The notes beneath the pieces were generated by a model, which did no database searches, was not told where the DNA came from, and saw nothing but the letters and a program-made list of their open reading frames with translations. This document shows positions 4,577-46,675 of a DNA stretch of 64,000 nucleotides, one piece after another. The stretch lies in NCBI RefSeq assembly GCF_009914755.1, contig NC_060936.1; one strand, given 5' to 3'. The number at the start of each line of letters is the position of its first letter. Position 1 is the first letter of the stretch. Made by a program: the position numbers and the translations under genes. Source of the DNA: the human T2T-CHM13v2.0 reference genome, Homo sapiens.

Positions 4577-5333
4577 TTTTTTTTTAAATTTTAATATTAT
4601 TATACTTTAAGTTTTAGGGTACATGTGCACAACGTGCAGGTTTGTTACATATGTATACATGTGCCATGTTGGTGTGCTGCACCCATTAACTTGTCATTTA
4701 CATTAGGTATATCTCCTAATGCTATCCCTCCCCCCTCCCCCCACCCCACAACAGTCCCCAGTGTGTGATGTTCCCCTTCCTGTGTCCATGTGTTCTCATT
4801 GTTCAATTCCCACCTATAAGTGAGAACATGCGGTGTTTGGTTTTTTGTCTTTGCGATAGTTTGCTGAGAATGATGGTTTCCAGTTTCATCCATGTCCCTA
4901 CAAAGGACATGAACTCATCATTTTTATGGCTGCATAGTATTCCATGGTGTATATGTGCCAAATTTTCTTAATCCAGTCTATCGTTGATGGACATTTAGGT
5001 TGGTTCCAAGTCTTTGCTATTGTGAATAGTGCCGCTATAAACATACGTGTGCATGTGTCTTTATAGCAGCATGATTTATAATCCTTTGGGTATATATCCA
5101 GTAATGGGATGGCTGGGTCAAATGGTATTTCTAGTTCTAGATCCCTGAGGAATGGCCACACTGACTTCCACAATGGTTGAACTAGTTTACAGTCCCACCA
5201 ACAGTGTAAAAGTGTTCCTATTTCTCCACATCCTTTCCAGCACCTGTTGTTTCCTAACTTTTTAATGATTGCCATTCTAACTGGTGTGAGATGGTACCTC
5301 ATTGTGGTTTTGATTTGCATTTCTCTGATGGCC
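4577..5333 (-). mobile_element. 5'-truncated L1PA (young primate L1): ORF2 C-terminus plus 3'UTR
   Basis: ORF 4898..5320 translates as the ORF2p C-terminus ([21 protein letters not shown]...[12 protein letters not shown]); G-rich 3'UTR; TSD tggcctggcac at 4565-4575 and 5329-5339. Confidence 0.95.
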
Positions 5334-10637: not shown

Positions 10638-11929
<1,292 letters not shown>

Positions 11930-12787
11930 CTTTAAGAAATACACAAGCAGTAGAGGGCCCTAGATTGATCAAACAGAAGGCTGAAATTAATTTCTGGATT
12001 TCAAGCTCAGACATGCAGAAACTGGCTTCAAAGAAAGGAGCCAGCTTAAATAGACCAAATAGTTTTGCAGCAAATGACTGAAAACAGATGAGAGTGAGAA
12101 TTAGGCTGAATCATAAGTTAGGCAACACATAGCCAAAGCTTAGGAACCTACCTGGAAGCAGCTTCATACAGGCAACTACTTGAAGTTTTTTTTTAAGGCT
12201 TTCTAGGCTTTCAGAGGATTCCAGGACTATTTTGAGCTATCCCCAGAAAGGTTAATAAAGCAAAAACAAAGAAGCAACAACTTGCTAAAGTGACAGCAGG
12301 AAGCAAAGTTAGAAATAACTGGAGAACATTGTATTTATCTATGTTTGGCCTCAGTGTGCATTTTAGAAGTTGAAAAACTCCTGGAAACCAATAGGATGCT
12401 GAACAAAAACTAAACAAAAAATTTTAGTTTGTTCTGCCATTTTCAGATAAAGTATGATCCTCAAAACAATAAACCAAAAGTAATCAACCCCAAAACACTG
12501 ATCTTTTAAAATTACCTTTTAATTTAAAGGACCAATTTAAAATCTTAAACAGGCTGCAAAGAACAAAAAACCTGACAGGCTTTAATATTAAAGTATAAGA
12601 TTGGTTCTGGATAGGAAATAGCTGCACTATCCCACAATGACAATCACTGAGACACTTAGAAGTTCTCAGGAAAAAATATTTATTTCCTAAGTCTGTCCAC
12701 ATATTTTCAACAGTGATCTATTTGGGGTTATTCCAATGCTCGCCAATTCACTCTCACCAGTCCTAAACATGTAAGTGTAAAGTATTA

Positions 12788-15701
<2,914 letters not shown>

Positions 15702-16812
15702 AGACTACTATACTAACTCACCTTTGCTTTGGTTGGGAACCTTCGTTAAATGTTTGCCTACAAAATTTTAAAAGCTTATCTTTTTATACAAGTTTATCTT
15801 TTCATACAACCTTTCCTGAATTGTAACACTCATCCTTCATTTCCTAGGAAGTGATATAGCAAATACTTTCAAAATTGAATTGAATCTTGCCTCATTGTAA
15901 ACAGGCAGTCAGTCCATTATACAGAAGACCAAAAAAAAAAAAAAAAGTTTTTAAACAAAAGGACAAACAAGAGAAAGGAAGGAAACAAAATACTATGATT
16001 TAACAGGAACAAAACCCAACATTCTTTCAACACAAAGTGTCCACAAGGGAAATGTCGAAGAGAAAATGTCATGATAAAATATTTTTAAGATATAAAATGA
16101 CTCCAATGCAAAATATTTGTTGTTGTTGATTTTTGTTTTGTTTTTAGCTCAAAGGAGTTATTATTTCTCGTCATTTATGTTCCTTACTTGTGTTTATCCA
16201 TTCCCACTGGGTCGACAGAAACATTTCAATTTTATTTTCTTTACAGTCTATTTTTCTTCCTGATTCTTCAAGAGTAAGTTCCTTGATCTTAACTTCTATT
16301 TATGAAAGTTCTGGCCTGAAAAGAACCTTGAGGGGTTATCGAGTCCATCCTTCTGCTTTCCAGGAGAATTCATAACTAATGCTATCAGATGGATGAGAAG
16401 GTATCAAAAGAAAATGCATTGTTTCCCTGCCTAGTAGCATGCTAATTTAATATGCACATTCATTCACGATTTGCAATTTTTTAAAAACGAAAGTAAAAAT
16501 TAAAATGCCAAAAGAGGAAGGTACTTAAAAAATGCATTTATCAGCTAAAATTGCTCAAACATAAATTCAACTGTCAGGTCTAAAATTAACAAGCAGGAAA
16601 AGTTGCTGCCTGCCAATGTAAAGTCTTTAGTCCCTAGAGATGTCTTCTGAAGTTGTATCTCATTTGTAGCACCCTTCACCTACAACACTTAGACCTGGCA
16701 AACTTAGACCATCCTTGCCAATAAACTACAATTATAAATGGCAATTTTGTGTGTGTGTGTGTGTGTTTATAGTTGGTATAGGTTTTTATTCCAAACAGAA
16801 AATGAAAAGTTA

Positions 16813-18864
<2,052 letters not shown>

Positions 18865-18999
18865 CTATGAAGAAATATGGTTAATTTTCTATAATTATTT
18901 GAAAATGAAAAAAAAAACAGGACTAGAAGTCTTGGAAATGGGAAAATTATAATTTTTTAAAATGTGGGGCAAGGGAGGTCGAGTACAGAAATCGTAGAC

Positions 19000-21260
<2,261 letters not shown>

Positions 21261-41465: not shown

Positions 41466-43018
41466 AATAAAGACCACCAGAAGCAGTTTGCTTTTAGCTG
41501 GCAAGGCCAGCAATACACTTTGACTGTCCTATCTCAGAGCTATGTCAACTTTCCAGTCCACTGGAGAGTTCACAAGGATCTTGATTGCTTTTTTCTTCCA
41601 CGAGATATTATGCTGGTCCATTACATTGATATTATTTTCTTATTTTAGAGACAGGATCTCACTCTGTTATCCAGGCTGGAGTGCAGGGGTGTGATCATAG
41701 CTCACTGTAAACTCAAACTCCTAGGATCAATATATTCCCCATTTGGTTATGTTACTCCAGCCCATTTACCAAATGACTTGAAAAGTTTCCAGTTTTGAGT
41801 GGGGCCCAGAACAGAAGTCTCTGTAACAGGTCCAGGGTGCTGTGCAAGCAGCTGTGCTGCTTGAGCCATGTGATCCAGCAGATCCAGCGGTGCTTGAAGT
41901 GTCAGGGGCAGATATGGACACTCTCAAAGGTCTTCAATCCTCTGCAAAGAAGTACTTTTTTTTTTTTTTTTTTGAGACAGAGCCTTGCTCTTATCGCCCA
42001 GGTTGGAGTGCAATGGCACAATCTTGGCCCACTGCAACCTCCGCCTCCTGGGTTCAAGCGATTCTCCCTGCCTCAGCCTCCCAAGTAACTGGGATTACAG
42101 GCGCCTGCCACCATACCCGGCTAATTTTTGTATTTTTAGTAGAGACATGGTTTTGCCATGTTGGCCAGGGTGGTCTTGAACTCCTGACCTCAGGTGACCT
42201 GCCCGCCTCGGCCTCCCAAAGTGCTGGGATTATAGGCATGAGCCCCGGCACCTAGCCAGAAGTACTCTCCTTTTGAGAAGTAGCTCTTGGCCTGCTACTG
42301 GGCCTTAATAGAGACTCAGTACTTAACCTTGGGTCACCTAGTTACCATGGAACCTGAGCTGCTCATCATGAACTCGGTGTTATCTGCCCCACCAAGTCAC
42401 AACATTGGGCATGCAAAGCAGCATTGCATCATCAAATGGAAGTGGTGTGTACATGATTGGGCTTGAATAGTCCCTGAAGGCACAGGTAAGTTACATGAAG
42501 AAGTGATCCAAATACCTGTAGCCCCCATTCCTGTTACTCTGCCTTCACTCTCCCAGCCTGCACCTATGGCCTCATGGAATGTTGCCTATGATCAGTTGAC
42601 AGAGGAAAAGAAGACCCAGGCCAGATTTACAGATGGTTGTGTACATTACACAGGCACGACCCAAAAGTGGACAGCTGCACACAAAAGTCCCTTTCTGGGA
42701 CACCCCAAAGGACAGTGGTGAAGGGAAATCCTCCCAGTGGGGCAGAACTTCAAGCATTACACCAGGTCGTTCACTTTGCTTGGAAGGAGAAATGGTCAAA
42801 CATGCAATTATATATTGATTCATGGGCTGTAGCCAATAGTTTGGCTGGATAGTCATGGACTTGGAATGAACACTATTAGAAAATTGGTGACAAAGAAATC
42901 GAAAAAGAGGTATATGCATAGACTTCTTTGGGCAAAAAAATGAAAAGATATTTGTGTCCCATATGAATGGTCACCAAAGCATGACCTCAGAAGAGGAGGA
43001 TTTTAAGAGTTAAGTGGA

Positions 43019-43426
43019 ACAATCAACAGAGTAAACAGAGTCTATAGAATGGGAAAAATATTTGCAAACTATGCATTTGACAAAGGGCTAATATCCAGAA
43101 TCTACAAGGAACTCAAACAACTCTACAAGAAAAAAAAAACCCCATTAAAAAGTGACCAAAGGAATAAACATTTTCCAAAAGTCATACAAGCAGCCAACAA
43201 ACACAAAAAATGCTCAACATCACTAATCATCAGAGAAATGCAAATCAAACCCACAATGAGATACCATCTCACACCAGTCAGAATGGCTATTACAAAGTCT
43301 AAAAACACTGTAATCTCAGCTATTAGGTGGCTGAGGCACAAGAATTGCTTGAACCCGGGAGGTGGAGGTTGCAGGGAGCTGAGATCACTCCACTGCGCTC
43401 CAGCCTGAGAGAGACCTTGTCTCATT

Positions 43427-43457
<31 letters not shown>

Positions 43458-43586
43458 AAAAACAACAGATGTTGGCAAAGATGCAGCGGAAAAGGGAATG
43501 CTTACATACTATTGGTGGGAATTTCAGTACAACCTTTATGGAAAACAGTATGGAGATTACTCAAAGAACTAAAAATAGAACTACCA
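43019..43586 (+). mobile_element. Older L1 (L1PA13-16/L1PB-like) ORF2 3' fragment containing a 5'-truncated Alu (43308-43452)
   Basis: ORF 43049..43408 [23 protein letters not shown]...[12 protein letters not shown]; Alu TSD aaagtctaaaaaca. Confidence 0.85.
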
Positions 43587-44930
43587 GTGGAGCAGAACAG
43601 AGGCCTCAGAACACCACACATCTACAATCATCTGATCTTTGACAAACCTGACAAAAACAAGAAATGGGGAAAGGATTCCCTATTTAATGAATGGTGCTGG
43701 GAAGATTGGCTAGCCATATGTAGAAAGCTGAAACTGGATCGCTTCCTTACACCTTATACAAGGATTGATTCAAGATGGATTGAAGACTTGAATGTTGGAC
43801 CTGAGACCATAAAAACCCTAGAAGAAAACCTAGGCAATACCATTCAGTACATAGACATGGGCAAGGACTTCATGACTGAAACACCAAAAGCAATGGCAAC
43901 AAAAGCCAAAATAGACAAATGGGATCTAATTAAACTAAGGAGCTTCTGCACGGCGAAGGAAACTACCATCAGAGTGTACAGGCAACCTACAGAATGGGAG
44001 AAAATTTTTGCAATCTACCTATCTGACAAAGGGCTAATATCCAGAATCTACAAAGAACTCAAGCAAATTTACAAGAGAAAAACAAACAACCCCATCAAAA
44101 AGTGGGCAAAGGATATGAACAGACACTTCTCAAAAGAAGACATTTATGCAGCCAACAGACACATGAAAAAATGCTCATCATCACTGGCCATCAGAGAAAT
44201 GCAAATTGAAACCACAATGAGATACCATCTCACGCCAGTTAGAATGGAGATCATTAAAAAGTCAGGAAACAACAGATGCTGGAGAGGATGTGGAGAAACA
44301 GGAATGCTTTTACACTGTTGGTGGGAATGTAAACTAGTTCAACCATTGTGGAAGACAGCGTGGCAATTCCTCAAGGATCTAGAACTAGAAATACCATTTG
44401 ACCCAGCAGTCCCATTCCTGGGTATATACCCAGAGGATTATAAATCATGCTACTATAAAGACACATGCACATGTATGTTTGTTGCAGCACTATTCACAGT
44501 AGCAAGGACTTGGAACCAAATGTCCGGCAATGATAGACTGGATTAAGAAATGTGACACATATACACCATGGAATACTATGCAGCCATATAAAAGGATGAG
44601 TTCATGTCCTTTGCAGGGACGTGGATGAAGCTGGAAACCATCATTCTCAGCAAGCTATCACAAAGGCAGAGGACCAAACACTGCATGCTCTCACTCATAG
44701 GTGGGAATTGAACAATGAGAACACTTGGACACAGGGCGGGGAACATCACACACCGGGGCCTGTCAGGGGGTGGGGGGCTGGGGGAGGGATAGCATTAGGA
44801 GAAATACCTAATGTAAATGACGAGTTGATCGGTGCAGCAAACCAACATGGCACATGTATACCTATGTATCAAACATGCACATTGTGCACATGTACCCTAG
44901 AACTTAAAGTATAATAAAAAAAAAAGAAAA
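43583..44930 (+). mobile_element. 5'-truncated L1PA (approx. L1PA5-7), A>G hypermutated
   Basis: ORF 43512..44546 encodes the ORF2p C-terminal third; complete 3'UTR and A tail; right TSD ttaagtgga at 44936-44944. Confidence 0.93.
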
Positions 44931-46675
44931 ACAAATTAAGTGGATATGGTGACCCATTTTATGGATGCCAGTCAGCCCTCTTTCCCAGCCACCCCTGTCA
45001 TTGTCCAATGGGCTAATAAACAAAATGGCCATGGTGGCAGGAATGGAACTTATGCATGGGCTCTTTAACATAGACTTCCACTCACCAGGGACAACCAGGC
45101 TACCACTGCTGCTGAGTGCCCAATCTGCCAGCAGCAGAGACCAACACTAAGTCCCCACTATGGCCAATTTCCTAGGGTGATAAGCCAGCTCCCTGGAGGC
45201 AGATTGATTACATTGGACAGCTTCTATCATGGAAGGAGTAGCTTTTGTTTTTACTGGAACAGACACTATAGATACAGATTTGCCTTCCCTGAATGCAATG
45301 CTTCTGCCAAAACTACCATCAGTAGACTTATAGAATGGCTTATCCACCATCCTGGTATTTCACACAGCATTGCTTTTGATCAAGGAACTCACCTCACAGC
45401 AAAATAAGCACACCAATGAATCTGTGCTCATGGAATTCACTAGTTTTAACATATTCCCCACCATCCTGCAATAGCTGGTTTGATAGAATGGTGGAATGAC
45501 CTTTTGGAAACTCAGTTACAGCTCCAGCTAGGTGGTAATATATAAGTAAGAGCTGGGGCAAGTTTCTCCAGAAGGAGATATGAGTTGAATCAGTGTCCAA
45601 TATATGATGTTATTTTCTCCATAGACAAGATTCACAGGTCCAGGAGTCAAGGGGTAGAAATGGGAGTGACACCACTCACTGTTACCCCTAGTAACCCCCT
45701 AGTATCCCCCTGGCAAAAAAAAAAAAATTTTTTTTTTTTTTGACAGAGTCTTGCTCTGTCGCCCAGGCTGGAGTGCAGTGGCATGATCTCGGCTCACTGA
45801 AACCTCTGCCTCCTGGGTTCAAGTAATTCTCCCGTCTCAGTCTCCTGAGGAGCTGGGATTACAGGTGGACAACACCATGTCCGACTAATTTTTGTATTTT
45901 CAGTAGAGACGGGGTTTCACCATGTTGGCCAGGCTAATCTTGAACTCCTGACCTCAGGTGATCTACCCATCTCAGCCTCTCAAAGTGCTGGGATTATAGG
46001 CGTAAGCCACCAAACCCGGCCACCCTAGAAAATTTTGCTTCCAATTCCTGCAACCTTATGGTTTGCTGGCCTAGAGGTCTTACTTCCAAAGGAAAGAATG
46101 CTTTTGCTAGGAGACACAACAATGATTCTACTGAAATAGAAGTTAAGACTGCTAGCTGTTCACAGGACACCTGCCACATGGACTCCTCATGCCTCTGAAT
46201 CAACAGCCAAAGAAGGGAATCACTGTGCTAGTTGGGGTGATTGATCCCAACTACCAAGGCGAAATTGGACTGTTACTGAACATTGAAGTTAAGGAATAGT
46301 ATATCTAGAATACAGGAGATCTCTTAAAGTGTCTCTTAGTATTACCATGCCTTGTAATTAAGGTCAATGGCAAACTACAACAACCCAATCCAGGAAGGAT
46401 TACTAATGGTTCAGACCATTCAGGTATGAAGGTTTGGGTCACTCTACCAGGTAAAGAAACATGACCAGCTGAAGTGCTTTCTGAAGTCAAAAGGAATGGG
46501 TACTTGAAGAAGGTAGTTATCAATAACAGCTACAACCACGTAACCAGTTACAGAAATGAGGACTGTAATAATGTTATGTGTATTCCTCTTTATTTTGTTA
46601 TAAATATGCTTGTGTATGTATACACACACTCACACACACACACACACCTCTCTCTCTTTATATATGTATATGTAT

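What the first reader, a model, noticed from the sequence alone, without database searches (positions are those of the whole stretch)
43583..44700. L1 copy carrying an ADAR-like A>G hypermutation signature: probable A-to-I edited RNA fixed in the genome by retrotransposition
Against the primate L1PA consensus as I recall it, I count about 30 sense-strand A>G substitutions in ~1.1 kb, versus about 3 T>C. Eight fall within 44 bp: ACAAGGATTGATT...GATTGAAGACTTGAATGTTGGACCTGAGACC for ACAAAAATTAATT...GATTAAAGACTTAAATGTTAGACCTAAAACC (G at 43762, 43763, 43767, 43782, 43790, 43797, 43803, 43805). Others include 43689, 43704, 43878, 43939, 43952, 43955, 43958, 44063, 44077, 44208, 44409, 44433, 44481, 44499, 44506, 44621, 44654, 44671 and 44672. 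The protein shows it as serial K>E, K>R, N>D, I>V and R>G changes (NEW, EDW, TRIDS, IED, VGPET, IET, PED, FVA, TVART). The 5' neighbour is almost always T or A and almost never G, the established ADAR preference. In-window control: the L1PA at 4577-5333 keeps A at the homologous sites it covers (IKT, PKD, FIA, TIAKT). Neutral decay gives CpG transitions on both strands and APOBEC3 gives G>A, so neither explains this. Inference: the source RNA was double-stranded, was hyper-edited, and was then reverse transcribed with inosine read as G, making an RNA edit heritable. A>G cannot create stop codons, consistent with the frame staying open for over 300 codons. It also raises the question of whether edited ORF2p acted in cis or the RNA was mobilised in trans.
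Basis: partly seen in the sequence, partly recalled or inferred. Interest (0 to 1): 0.9.

Follow-up and report, generated by a model that had tools for sequence, protein, structure and literature searches.

The report
RNA-edited L1 copy fixed in genome
An old human LINE-1 copy carries over three times the usual number of A-to-G changes, confined to one half of a likely two-template insertion, most likely because ADAR edited its RNA before it was copied into DNA, which would make an RNA edit heritable.

Summary
The A>G excess is real. Against 21 same-subfamily copies the L1PA at 43583-44912 has 31 A>G at 516 A sites (6.0%; controls 1.8%, p=1.6e-8) and 5 T>C, while its other divergence is low. 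All 31 lie in 43587-44672, and no other copy examined shares more than 3 of them. New here: the L1 is the 3' half of a composite insert within one 11-bp target duplication. The 5' half (43017-43586) copies an old L1M+Alu locus on chr7. It shows similar background divergence but only 2 A>G at 215 A sites (p=0.0004). Nearby Alus lean the other way. So the signal belongs to the L1 template, not the locus. The 5' neighbour order U>A>C>G matches ADAR, and there is no excess of A>T or A>C. Against: no 3'-G preference, weak 5'-G depletion versus neutral controls, no dsRNA partner or parent found, no orthologues available. The open frame is not unusual. Best reading: ADAR-edited L1 RNA, reverse-transcribed and fixed (0.72). 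I found no such case in ten literature searches.

The parts
42720..43018 (+). Left flank: internal sequence of an old endogenous retrovirus, the insertion target (ERV-L-like pol label is recalled, not tested)
   Evidence: 39 paralogues at 80-82%. In four paralogues that also appear (C5:15001853-63, C6:145062620-30, C10:84851442-52, C11) this flank runs straight into the right flank with an 11-base overlap.
43008..43018 (+). Left target-site duplication, 11 bp (10 of 11 identical to 44934-44944; possibly 14 bp from 43005, 11 of 14 identical), preceded by a T-run as at L1 endonuclease sites
   Evidence: overlap of flank hits; sequences
43017..43586 (+). 5' half of the insert: copy of an old L1M ORF2 fragment with its own truncated Alu, taken from G000:C7:112595521-112596069; not A>G-enriched
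   Evidence: Only one of 39 other loci scored covers positions 1-566 including the Alu. 24 derived states shared with chr7 against 23 outgroup L1M copies. 3-nt microhomology with the target at the 5' join. A>G 2 of 215.
43307..43450 (+). 5'-truncated Alu with poly(A) inside the L1M piece, present at the same position in the chr7 donor
43583..43586 (+). Middle junction: 4-nt microhomology between the L1M piece and the L1PA; no GT donor at the chr7 breakpoint; junction unique in the genome
   Evidence: 18 of 22 L1M outgroups have the state that makes the 4-nt match; chr7 itself now differs at one base; one hit at up to 2 mismatches, the window itself
43587..44672 (+). A>G-enriched segment of the L1PA (ORF2 C-terminal part): 31 A>G at 443 A sites (7.0%)
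43583..44912 (+). 5'-truncated L1PA (L1PA7-like; label recalled, not tested against Dfam), with deletions of 4, 5 and 1 nt near 43609, 44515 and 44547
   Evidence: 90-92% to its best paralogues; indels
44673..44912 (+). End of ORF2 and 3' UTR with no A>G against the same-subfamily majority (0 of 75 A sites)
   Evidence: p=0.01 under uniform placement; p=0.006 against the controls' split of 155 and 33
44913..44933 (+). Poly(A) tail
44934..44944 (+). Right target-site duplication; the retroviral target continues after it

Best explanation
This L1PA copy carries 31 sense-strand A>G changes within 1.1 kb, likely left by ADAR deaminating its RNA before reverse transcription, and it sits in a composite insert whose unmutated 5' half was copied from a chr7 locus, likely by a template switch in the same event. 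Steps: (1) inferred: an L1PA RNA paired with an antisense L1 sequence over the ORF2 C-terminal region but not the last 240 nt; (2) inferred: ADAR converted about 22-25 of its A to inosine (31 seen, less 6-9 expected from ordinary decay); (3) shown by anatomy: target-primed insertion with a poly(A) tail and an 11-bp duplication; (4) inferred: the reverse transcriptase put C opposite inosine, and 4 nt past the last edit it moved by a 4-nt microhomology onto the chr7 L1M+Alu template, copied about 566 nt and joined the target by a 3-nt microhomology; (5) inferred: the copy was dead on arrival and left no daughters. The edits were not filtered for protein function, so the ORF2p that did the work was likely made from unedited RNA.
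For: Size and purity: 31 of 516 A against 188 of 10232 (p=1.6e-8); A>G is 31 of 34 changes at A against 188 of 307 in controls (p=0.0003). Counts in 48 near-full-length controls are Poisson-like (mean 7.3, variance 7.9; P(>=30)=2.6e-10). Template-specific: first A>G 4 nt past the junction; the 5' half has 2 of 215 (p=0.0004) with similar other divergence (6 of 512 against 25 of 1324, p=0.42). Not a local DNA bias: 52 window Alus show A>G 54 of 2676 against T>C 84 of 2656 on the + strand, the opposite direction. Not inherited from a sampled lineage or from L1M. 5' neighbour rates U 0.100, A 0.080, C 0.036, G 0.011 follow the U>A>C>G order reported for human ADAR1/2 (PMC4408787); A/T against C/G is 24:6 against 97:91 in controls (p=0.005). 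Edits are clustered and bounded. 16 of 23 in-frame edits are non-synonymous, as for all A sites (251 of 367; p=1.0). One edited site has a neighbouring C>T (44207-8), as expected if a new CpG arose early and then decayed (weak). ADAR-type A>G is known in two avian retroviruses (PMC12925331).
Against: No 3'-G enrichment (5 of 31 against 87 of 514 A sites), although human hyper-edited sites show it (PMC4365171); 3' A is enriched against controls instead (16 of 31 against 47 of 188, p=0.005, one of eight such tests). 5'-G depletion against neutral controls is only p=0.14. The A/T 5' preference is equally the WA motif of polymerase eta. No unedited parent or antisense partner was found: none among 39+39 best-scoring copies, none in 43.5 kb at the chr7 donor. 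Edited sites are no more paired than other A in folded paralogues (p=0.28-0.66), so the duplex must come from outside. ADAR1 did not edit ectopic L1 RNA in 293T cells by Sanger sequencing (PMC5224506). An AT>GG doublet at 44526-7 and three small deletions are not ADAR products. Only 8 of 35 differences in the 5' half fall on the window lineage, an unexplained asymmetry. A two-step origin (chr7 piece first, L1PA later with a deletion) is not excluded and would weaken the control against synthesis errors. Controls were picked for similarity, which narrows their spread; with strong overdispersion the count alone gives only p~1e-5.
Confidence: 0.72

Rival explanations
1. Error-prone DNA synthesis at insertion: polymerase eta or a reverse transcriptase under nucleotide imbalance put G opposite T while making the sense strand of the L1 part.
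For: A/T 5' preference is the WA hotspot (PMC6423074). Tandem changes (43762-3, 44671-2, 44526-7) and three small deletions occur. No 3'-G preference.
Against: Only 3 A>T or A>C changes, no more than controls; polymerase eta should add many (recalled spectrum, not from a call). The excess stops within 4 nt of the template junction and spares the last 240 nt, though one sense strand crosses all three parts if the insert is one event.
Confidence: 0.14
2. The G alleles were inherited from an unsampled source element or minor lineage that already carried them, by editing in an earlier round or by drift.
For: Searches score only the best 40 of 11,000-19,000 candidates. No Dfam consensus was available. 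43952 is a shared variant.
Against: The edited 32-mer has no other match at up to 2 mismatches; at 3 mismatches 10 loci carry just 2 of its 5 G. Five of those 10 were tested (L012, L081-L084) and are ordinary (8-13 A>G). 16 non-synonymous edits in about 300 codons are unlikely in an active source (inference). The junction is unique.
Confidence: 0.08
3. Post-insertion process at the locus (transcription-coupled A>G bias, regional mutability) or a chance outlier among many L1 copies.
For: The locus was picked from a whole-genome read because it looked unusual. About 6-9 of the 31 changes are expected from ordinary decay.
Against: The adjacent 5' half has no excess. Alus at 36-52 kb show A>G 10 of 576 and T>C 24 of 658. 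Neighbouring genes are on the minus strand, which predicts the opposite bias. Other substitution types are low. The composition test gives p=2.4e-9.
Confidence: 0.05
4. Assembly or consensus error in this reference.
For: No second assembly could be checked.
Against: The copy has unique anchors on both sides, the changes are of one type on one strand, and they end at a biological junction.
Confidence: 0.01

Closest known systems
APOBEC3 DNA-edited retroelements fixed in vertebrate genomes (Knisbacher and Levanon, PMC4866542, passages seen; Carmi et al. 2011, recalled and cited there)
   Same: A single retroelement copy with a strand-specific, clustered excess of one transition against its subfamily, acquired before or during integration and inherited since.
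   Different: Those are G>A from C-to-U on cDNA, mainly in LTR elements. The published filter keeps G-to-A and discards A-to-G alignments, so this mirror class was filtered out of that screen. Here it is A>G in a non-LTR element.
ADAR-type A-to-G hypermutation of retroviruses: Rous-associated virus, avian leukosis virus, HTLV-2, STLV-3 (review PMC12925331, passages seen)
   Same: Inosine in a retroelement RNA is read as G by reverse transcriptase and passes into DNA.
   Different: Those are exogenous viruses, with up to about 50% of A changed in an inverted repeat. Here it is a germline L1 with 7% of A changed over 1.1 kb and no internal inverted repeat.
Hyper-edited cellular RNA in inverted Alu and L1 repeats (Porath et al., PMC4365171; Orecchini et al., PMC5224506; passages seen)
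   Same: Clusters of A>G, G depleted at the 5' neighbour; truncated L1s in transcripts are known ADAR targets.
   Different: Those are RNA-level only. They show 3'-G enrichment, which is absent here. Ectopic full-length L1 RNA was not detectably edited.
Chimeric LINE-1 insertions (Law and Burns, PMC13174262; outline, section 10, passages and supplement searches seen)
   Same: A foreign segment fused in sense to the 5' end of a truncated L1, inside one target duplication at an endonuclease-like site; explained by template switching or RNA ligation.
   Different: The partner is a locus-specific copy of an old L1M with an embedded Alu, not a small RNA, Alu RNA or mRNA exon. The main text never mentions editing, and this locus was not found in the six supplements searched.

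Membership tests
ADAR hyper-edited sequence | Excess of A>G over all other changes on one strand | tested here: met
   31 of 56 against 188 of 1026, p=2.4e-9; T>C 5 of 273
ADAR hyper-edited sequence | Clustered, bounded tract | tested here: met
   8 in 50 nt p=0.006; gaps of 10 nt or less 12 against 7.5 expected, p=0.03; 0 of 75 A in the tail
ADAR hyper-edited sequence | 5' neighbour U>A>C>G with G depleted | tested here: inconclusive
   Rank order met, G 1 of 30 (p=0.03 against A sites); p=0.14 against neutral A>G in controls; A/T against C/G p=0.005
ADAR hyper-edited sequence | 3' neighbour enriched for G | tested here: not met
   5 of 31 against 87 of 514 (p=1.0); small n. So it is filed as ADAR-like, not as a proven member
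ADAR hyper-edited sequence | Long double-stranded substrate | tested here: inconclusive
   No internal pairing bias; source locus and partner unknown
ADAR hyper-edited sequence | All changes present from insertion (shared by orthologues) | not testable with these tools
APOBEC3-edited retroelement | Sense-strand G>A excess | tested here: not met
   G>A 5, against 4-17 in controls
Polymerase eta mutagenesis | A mutated after A or T (WA) | tested here: met
   24 of 30
Polymerase eta mutagenesis | Accompanying A>T and A>C transversions (recalled spectrum) | tested here: not met
   3 of 34 changes at A against 119 of 307 in controls
Chimeric LINE-1 insertion | One target duplication around both parts, poly(A) at the 3' end | tested here: met
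   11-base overlap of the two flanks in four paralogues; 10 of 11 identical
Chimeric LINE-1 insertion | Identifiable donor of the 5' part elsewhere in the genome | tested here: met
   C7:112595521-112596069, 24 shared derived states and the same Alu
Chimeric LINE-1 insertion | Both parts present or absent together across species | not testable with these tools
   No orthologues; similar background divergence of the two halves (p=0.42) is only indirect
L1PA7 subfamily | Diagnostic positions of the Dfam or Repbase consensus | not testable with these tools
   No repeat library on hand; the label is recalled. The copy groups with 21 paralogues sharing 9-12 of 15 chosen variable sites

The most novel reading that the evidence does not exclude
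This is a fossil of ADAR acting on a germline L1 RNA tens of millions of years ago, and one member of an overlooked class of A>G-edited retrocopies, the mirror of APOBEC-edited elements. The inosine-rich tract also caused the RNA to break or the reverse transcriptase to stall, which triggered the switch onto the chr7 template, so editing both rewrote and truncated the insertion.
Probability: 0.25. Interest if true: 0.85.

Novelty: new variant of a known kind. Interest (0 to 1): 0.62.

Why it matters
ADAR1 is reported to restrict L1 without editing it (PMC5224506), and a genomic screen for edited retroelements kept G>A and discarded A>G (PMC4866542). A fixed A>G-edited L1 would show that edited RNA can complete retrotransposition in the germline, turning a transient RNA change into inherited sequence. 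It gives a cheap genome-wide test with a built-in null (T>C), a way to date past ADAR activity on retroelements, and a caution for dating: this copy looks as diverged as its peers in total, but over half of its differences are of one type. The chimeric anatomy provides a same-locus control that a lone hypermutated copy would lack.

Tried and rejected
Search for a parent or sibling: none among the best-scoring copies. The two small deletions each recur at separate loci (4 and 2 others, none shared); those six loci were not read. No L1PA parent in 43.5 kb at the chr7 donor; an 86% L1 at C7:112606601 lacks the first 181 nt and is too distant. A wider stretch of chr7 was not read, so a more distant parent stays open. 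Screen for other edited copies: of 10 loci sharing 2 of 5 G in the hot 32-mer, 5 were tested and none is enriched; 0 of 54 other L1PA copies exceed 2.5% A>G against their nearest neighbours. Mosaic with older L1M: rejected, G is a minority state at all 31 sites in 24 L1M loci. Internal hairpin as substrate: no support. Open frame as evidence: rejected. Pairing with the inverted L1PA at 4602-5333 in a minus-strand read-through RNA: rejected by reasoning, since it would give T>C on the + strand and covers only 12 of the 31 sites. Splicing as the origin of the middle junction: no GT at the chr7 breakpoint. CpG decay of new CG sites as a clock: too few sites (4 CG, one of them the shared 43952, and 1 TG). 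Earlier scan findings were not available.

Full report
Observation. The L1 at 43583-44912 (+) was compared with real paralogues from the same genome. One search gave 29 close copies of mixed subfamily; against their column majority the window has 34 A>G and 5 T>C among 72 changes. Searches added 20 copies matched on the 3' half. From the 50 controls then held (29 + 20 + the in-window L1PA) I kept the 21 that share at least 9 of 15 subfamily-variable sites with the window. Against these the window has 31 A>G at 516 A sites (6.0%) and 5 T>C at 273 T sites; leave-one-out controls have 188 of 10232 (1.84%) and 104 of 5428 (1.92%); binomial p=1.6e-8, z=7.1. Other changes are few (25 of 1324 sites, 1.9%; controls 1.9-3.8%), so A>G is 31 of 56 changes against 188 of 1026 (p=2.4e-9). 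With four more loci, each of 55 sequences was scored against its 12 nearest neighbours: the window has 30 of 513 (5.8%), the next highest 2.5%, and no copy carries G at more than 3 of the 31 sites. The edited 32-mer is unique at up to 2 mismatches. Ordinary decay would give about 6-9 A>G, so the excess is about 22-25.

Extent. The 31 changes lie between 43587 and 44672 (443 A sites, 7.0%); the last 240 nt have none at 75 A sites (p=0.01; p=0.006 against controls). They are clustered: 8 in 50 nt (p=0.006). In 24 older L1M loci G is a minority state at every one of the sites, so this is not a mosaic with an older family.

The 570 bases 5' of the L1PA look like an older L1M with an Alu in it. A genome search found one other locus covering the whole piece, Alu included: C7:112595523-112596071. 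It shares 24 derived states with the window against 23 outgroup L1M copies, has the Alu at the same place, and continues into L1M sequence on both sides where the window stops, so chr7 is the donor or its close sister. The flanks of the whole unit are an old endogenous retrovirus (39 other hits each). In the four paralogues that appear in both lists the left and right flank hits abut with an 11-base overlap, so 43019-44933 sits in one target duplication (43008-43018 and 44934-44944, 10 of 11 identical) with no loss of target. There are 3 nt of microhomology at the 5' join and 4 nt at the middle join, no splice donor at the chr7 break, and no second copy of the junction. The simplest reading is one target-primed event with a template switch, as for known chimeric L1 insertions (PMC13174262). 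A two-step history, with the L1PA landing in the tail of an earlier chr7-derived copy and deleting its 3' end, is not excluded.

The internal control. Polarised with L1M outgroups and 45 Alu hits from the window (the five Alu sites were assigned by hand, two or three at weak CpG columns), the 5' half has 8 window-lineage changes in 512 sites, 2 of them A>G at 215 A sites. That differs from the edited tract (p=0.0004) while other changes do not (6 of 512 against 25 of 1324, p=0.42). Unpolarised, the same test gave 7 of 218 and p=0.11, because five of those seven are G>A losses on chr7. The first A>G is 4 nt past the junction. Fifty-two near-full-length Alus in the window show the opposite strand bias (A>G 54 of 2676, T>C 84 of 2656; p=0.009), as expected from minus-strand genes. 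The in-window L1PA has 1 A>G at 256 A sites. The excess therefore came with the L1PA template.

Which process. 5' neighbour rates are U 0.100, A 0.080, C 0.036, G 0.011, the order reported for human ADAR1 and ADAR2 (PMC4408787). A/T against C/G is 24:6, against 97:91 for neutral A>G in controls (p=0.005); the control C class is inflated by CpG sites. G depletion alone is p=0.03 against base composition, p=0.14 against controls. The 3' side does not fit: G is 5 of 31 against 87 of 514, where human hyper-edited reads are G-enriched (PMC4365171). The A/T preference is also the WA motif of polymerase eta (PMC6423074), which makes that the main rival. Against it, changes at A are 31 G to 3 T or C, where controls have 188 to 119 (p=0.0003); the expectation of many transversions from polymerase eta is recalled, not taken from a call. 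A pure A>G change bounded by a template junction is what inosine in the template would give. Folded paralogues show no extra pairing at the edited sites, so the duplex would have been formed with an antisense L1; its end near 44672 could mark where homology with a partner of another subfamily ends (inference). No parent or partner was found.

Protein. Of 23 edits in the in-frame part 16 are non-synonymous, the same share as for all A sites (251 of 367), while control A>G are 75 to 50. The edits were not filtered by selection, which fits a single burst in a copy that never transposed again. Whether edited ORF2p worked in cis cannot be decided; with this density an edited protein would likely be dead. 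The 320-codon open frame is ordinary (11 of 44 controls are longer).

Literature. Ten searches (six aimed at edited retrocopies fixed in genomes) returned no title or abstract describing an A>G-edited L1 fixed in a genome; the library lacks most subscription papers, including Carmi et al. 2011, which I know only from recall and which may touch on A>G. Seen as passages: PMC4866542 (its filter keeps G-to-A, not A-to-G), PMC2873906, PMC5224506 (no editing of ectopic L1 RNA by Sanger sequencing, low-frequency editing not excluded), PMC4365171, PMC12925331 (A-to-G hypermutated avian retroviruses), PMC5974252 (nothing bearing), PMC4408787, PMC6423074. PMC13174262: outline, section 10, passages and two supplement searches; the locus was not found, but the hg38 prefixes I searched came from a recalled offset and one large file could not be read.

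Verdict. ADAR editing before reverse transcription is the best mechanism (0.72), with error-prone synthesis the main rival (0.14). Each ingredient is known (edited retroelements, ADAR-mutated retroviruses, chimeric L1s), but I found no description of their meeting in a germline L1. It is one locus, without orthologues or a partner strand, so interest is 0.62 and novelty is a new variant of a known kind.

Noticed in passing
window 43017-43586 and L032:1498-2052 (G000:C7:112595521-112596069): An old L1M fragment with its embedded Alu was copied from chr7 to chr12 at the 5' end of a younger L1. RepeatMasker-style annotation would read this as nested independent insertions. From recalled coordinates the donor would lie in an IMMP2L intron, antisense to the gene; not checked.
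   Followed up: yes
window 43017-43582 against L032: Only 8 of 35 differences fall on the window lineage; the L1M part splits 3 to 13. Either this gene-dense region mutates about three times more slowly than the chr7 site, or the true template was a lost sister of the chr7 locus.
   Followed up: partly
L032:1-2570: The chr7 donor element has a 5' inversion: about 930 bases of ORF2 in reverse, then the forward 3' part.
   Followed up: no
window 43005-43018 and 44931-44944: The two copies of the target duplication differ by A/G at 43009 and, if it extends to 14 bp, also at 43007; the left copy has G in both.
   Followed up: no
window 44515-44555: A tight cluster not explained by ADAR: 5-nt deletion, AT>GG doublet at 44526-7, 1-nt deletion near 44547 and G>A at 44555.
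   Followed up: no
whole window, 52 Alus: T>C exceeds A>G on the + strand (84 of 2656 against 54 of 2676, p=0.009), also between ATF7 and ATP5MC2 (24 of 658 against 10 of 576), suggesting minus-strand germline transcription through the intergenic region.
   Followed up: partly
L006 (G000:C19:56603366-56604712, -): The mirror outlier among controls: 0 A>G and 9 T>C against its neighbours (1 and 11). Could be chance or a transcription-linked bias.
   Followed up: no
window 4577-5333: The minus-strand L1PA used as control is itself set inside an Alu-flanked stretch and belongs to a younger subfamily (0 of 15 variable sites shared with the focus copy).
   Followed up: partly
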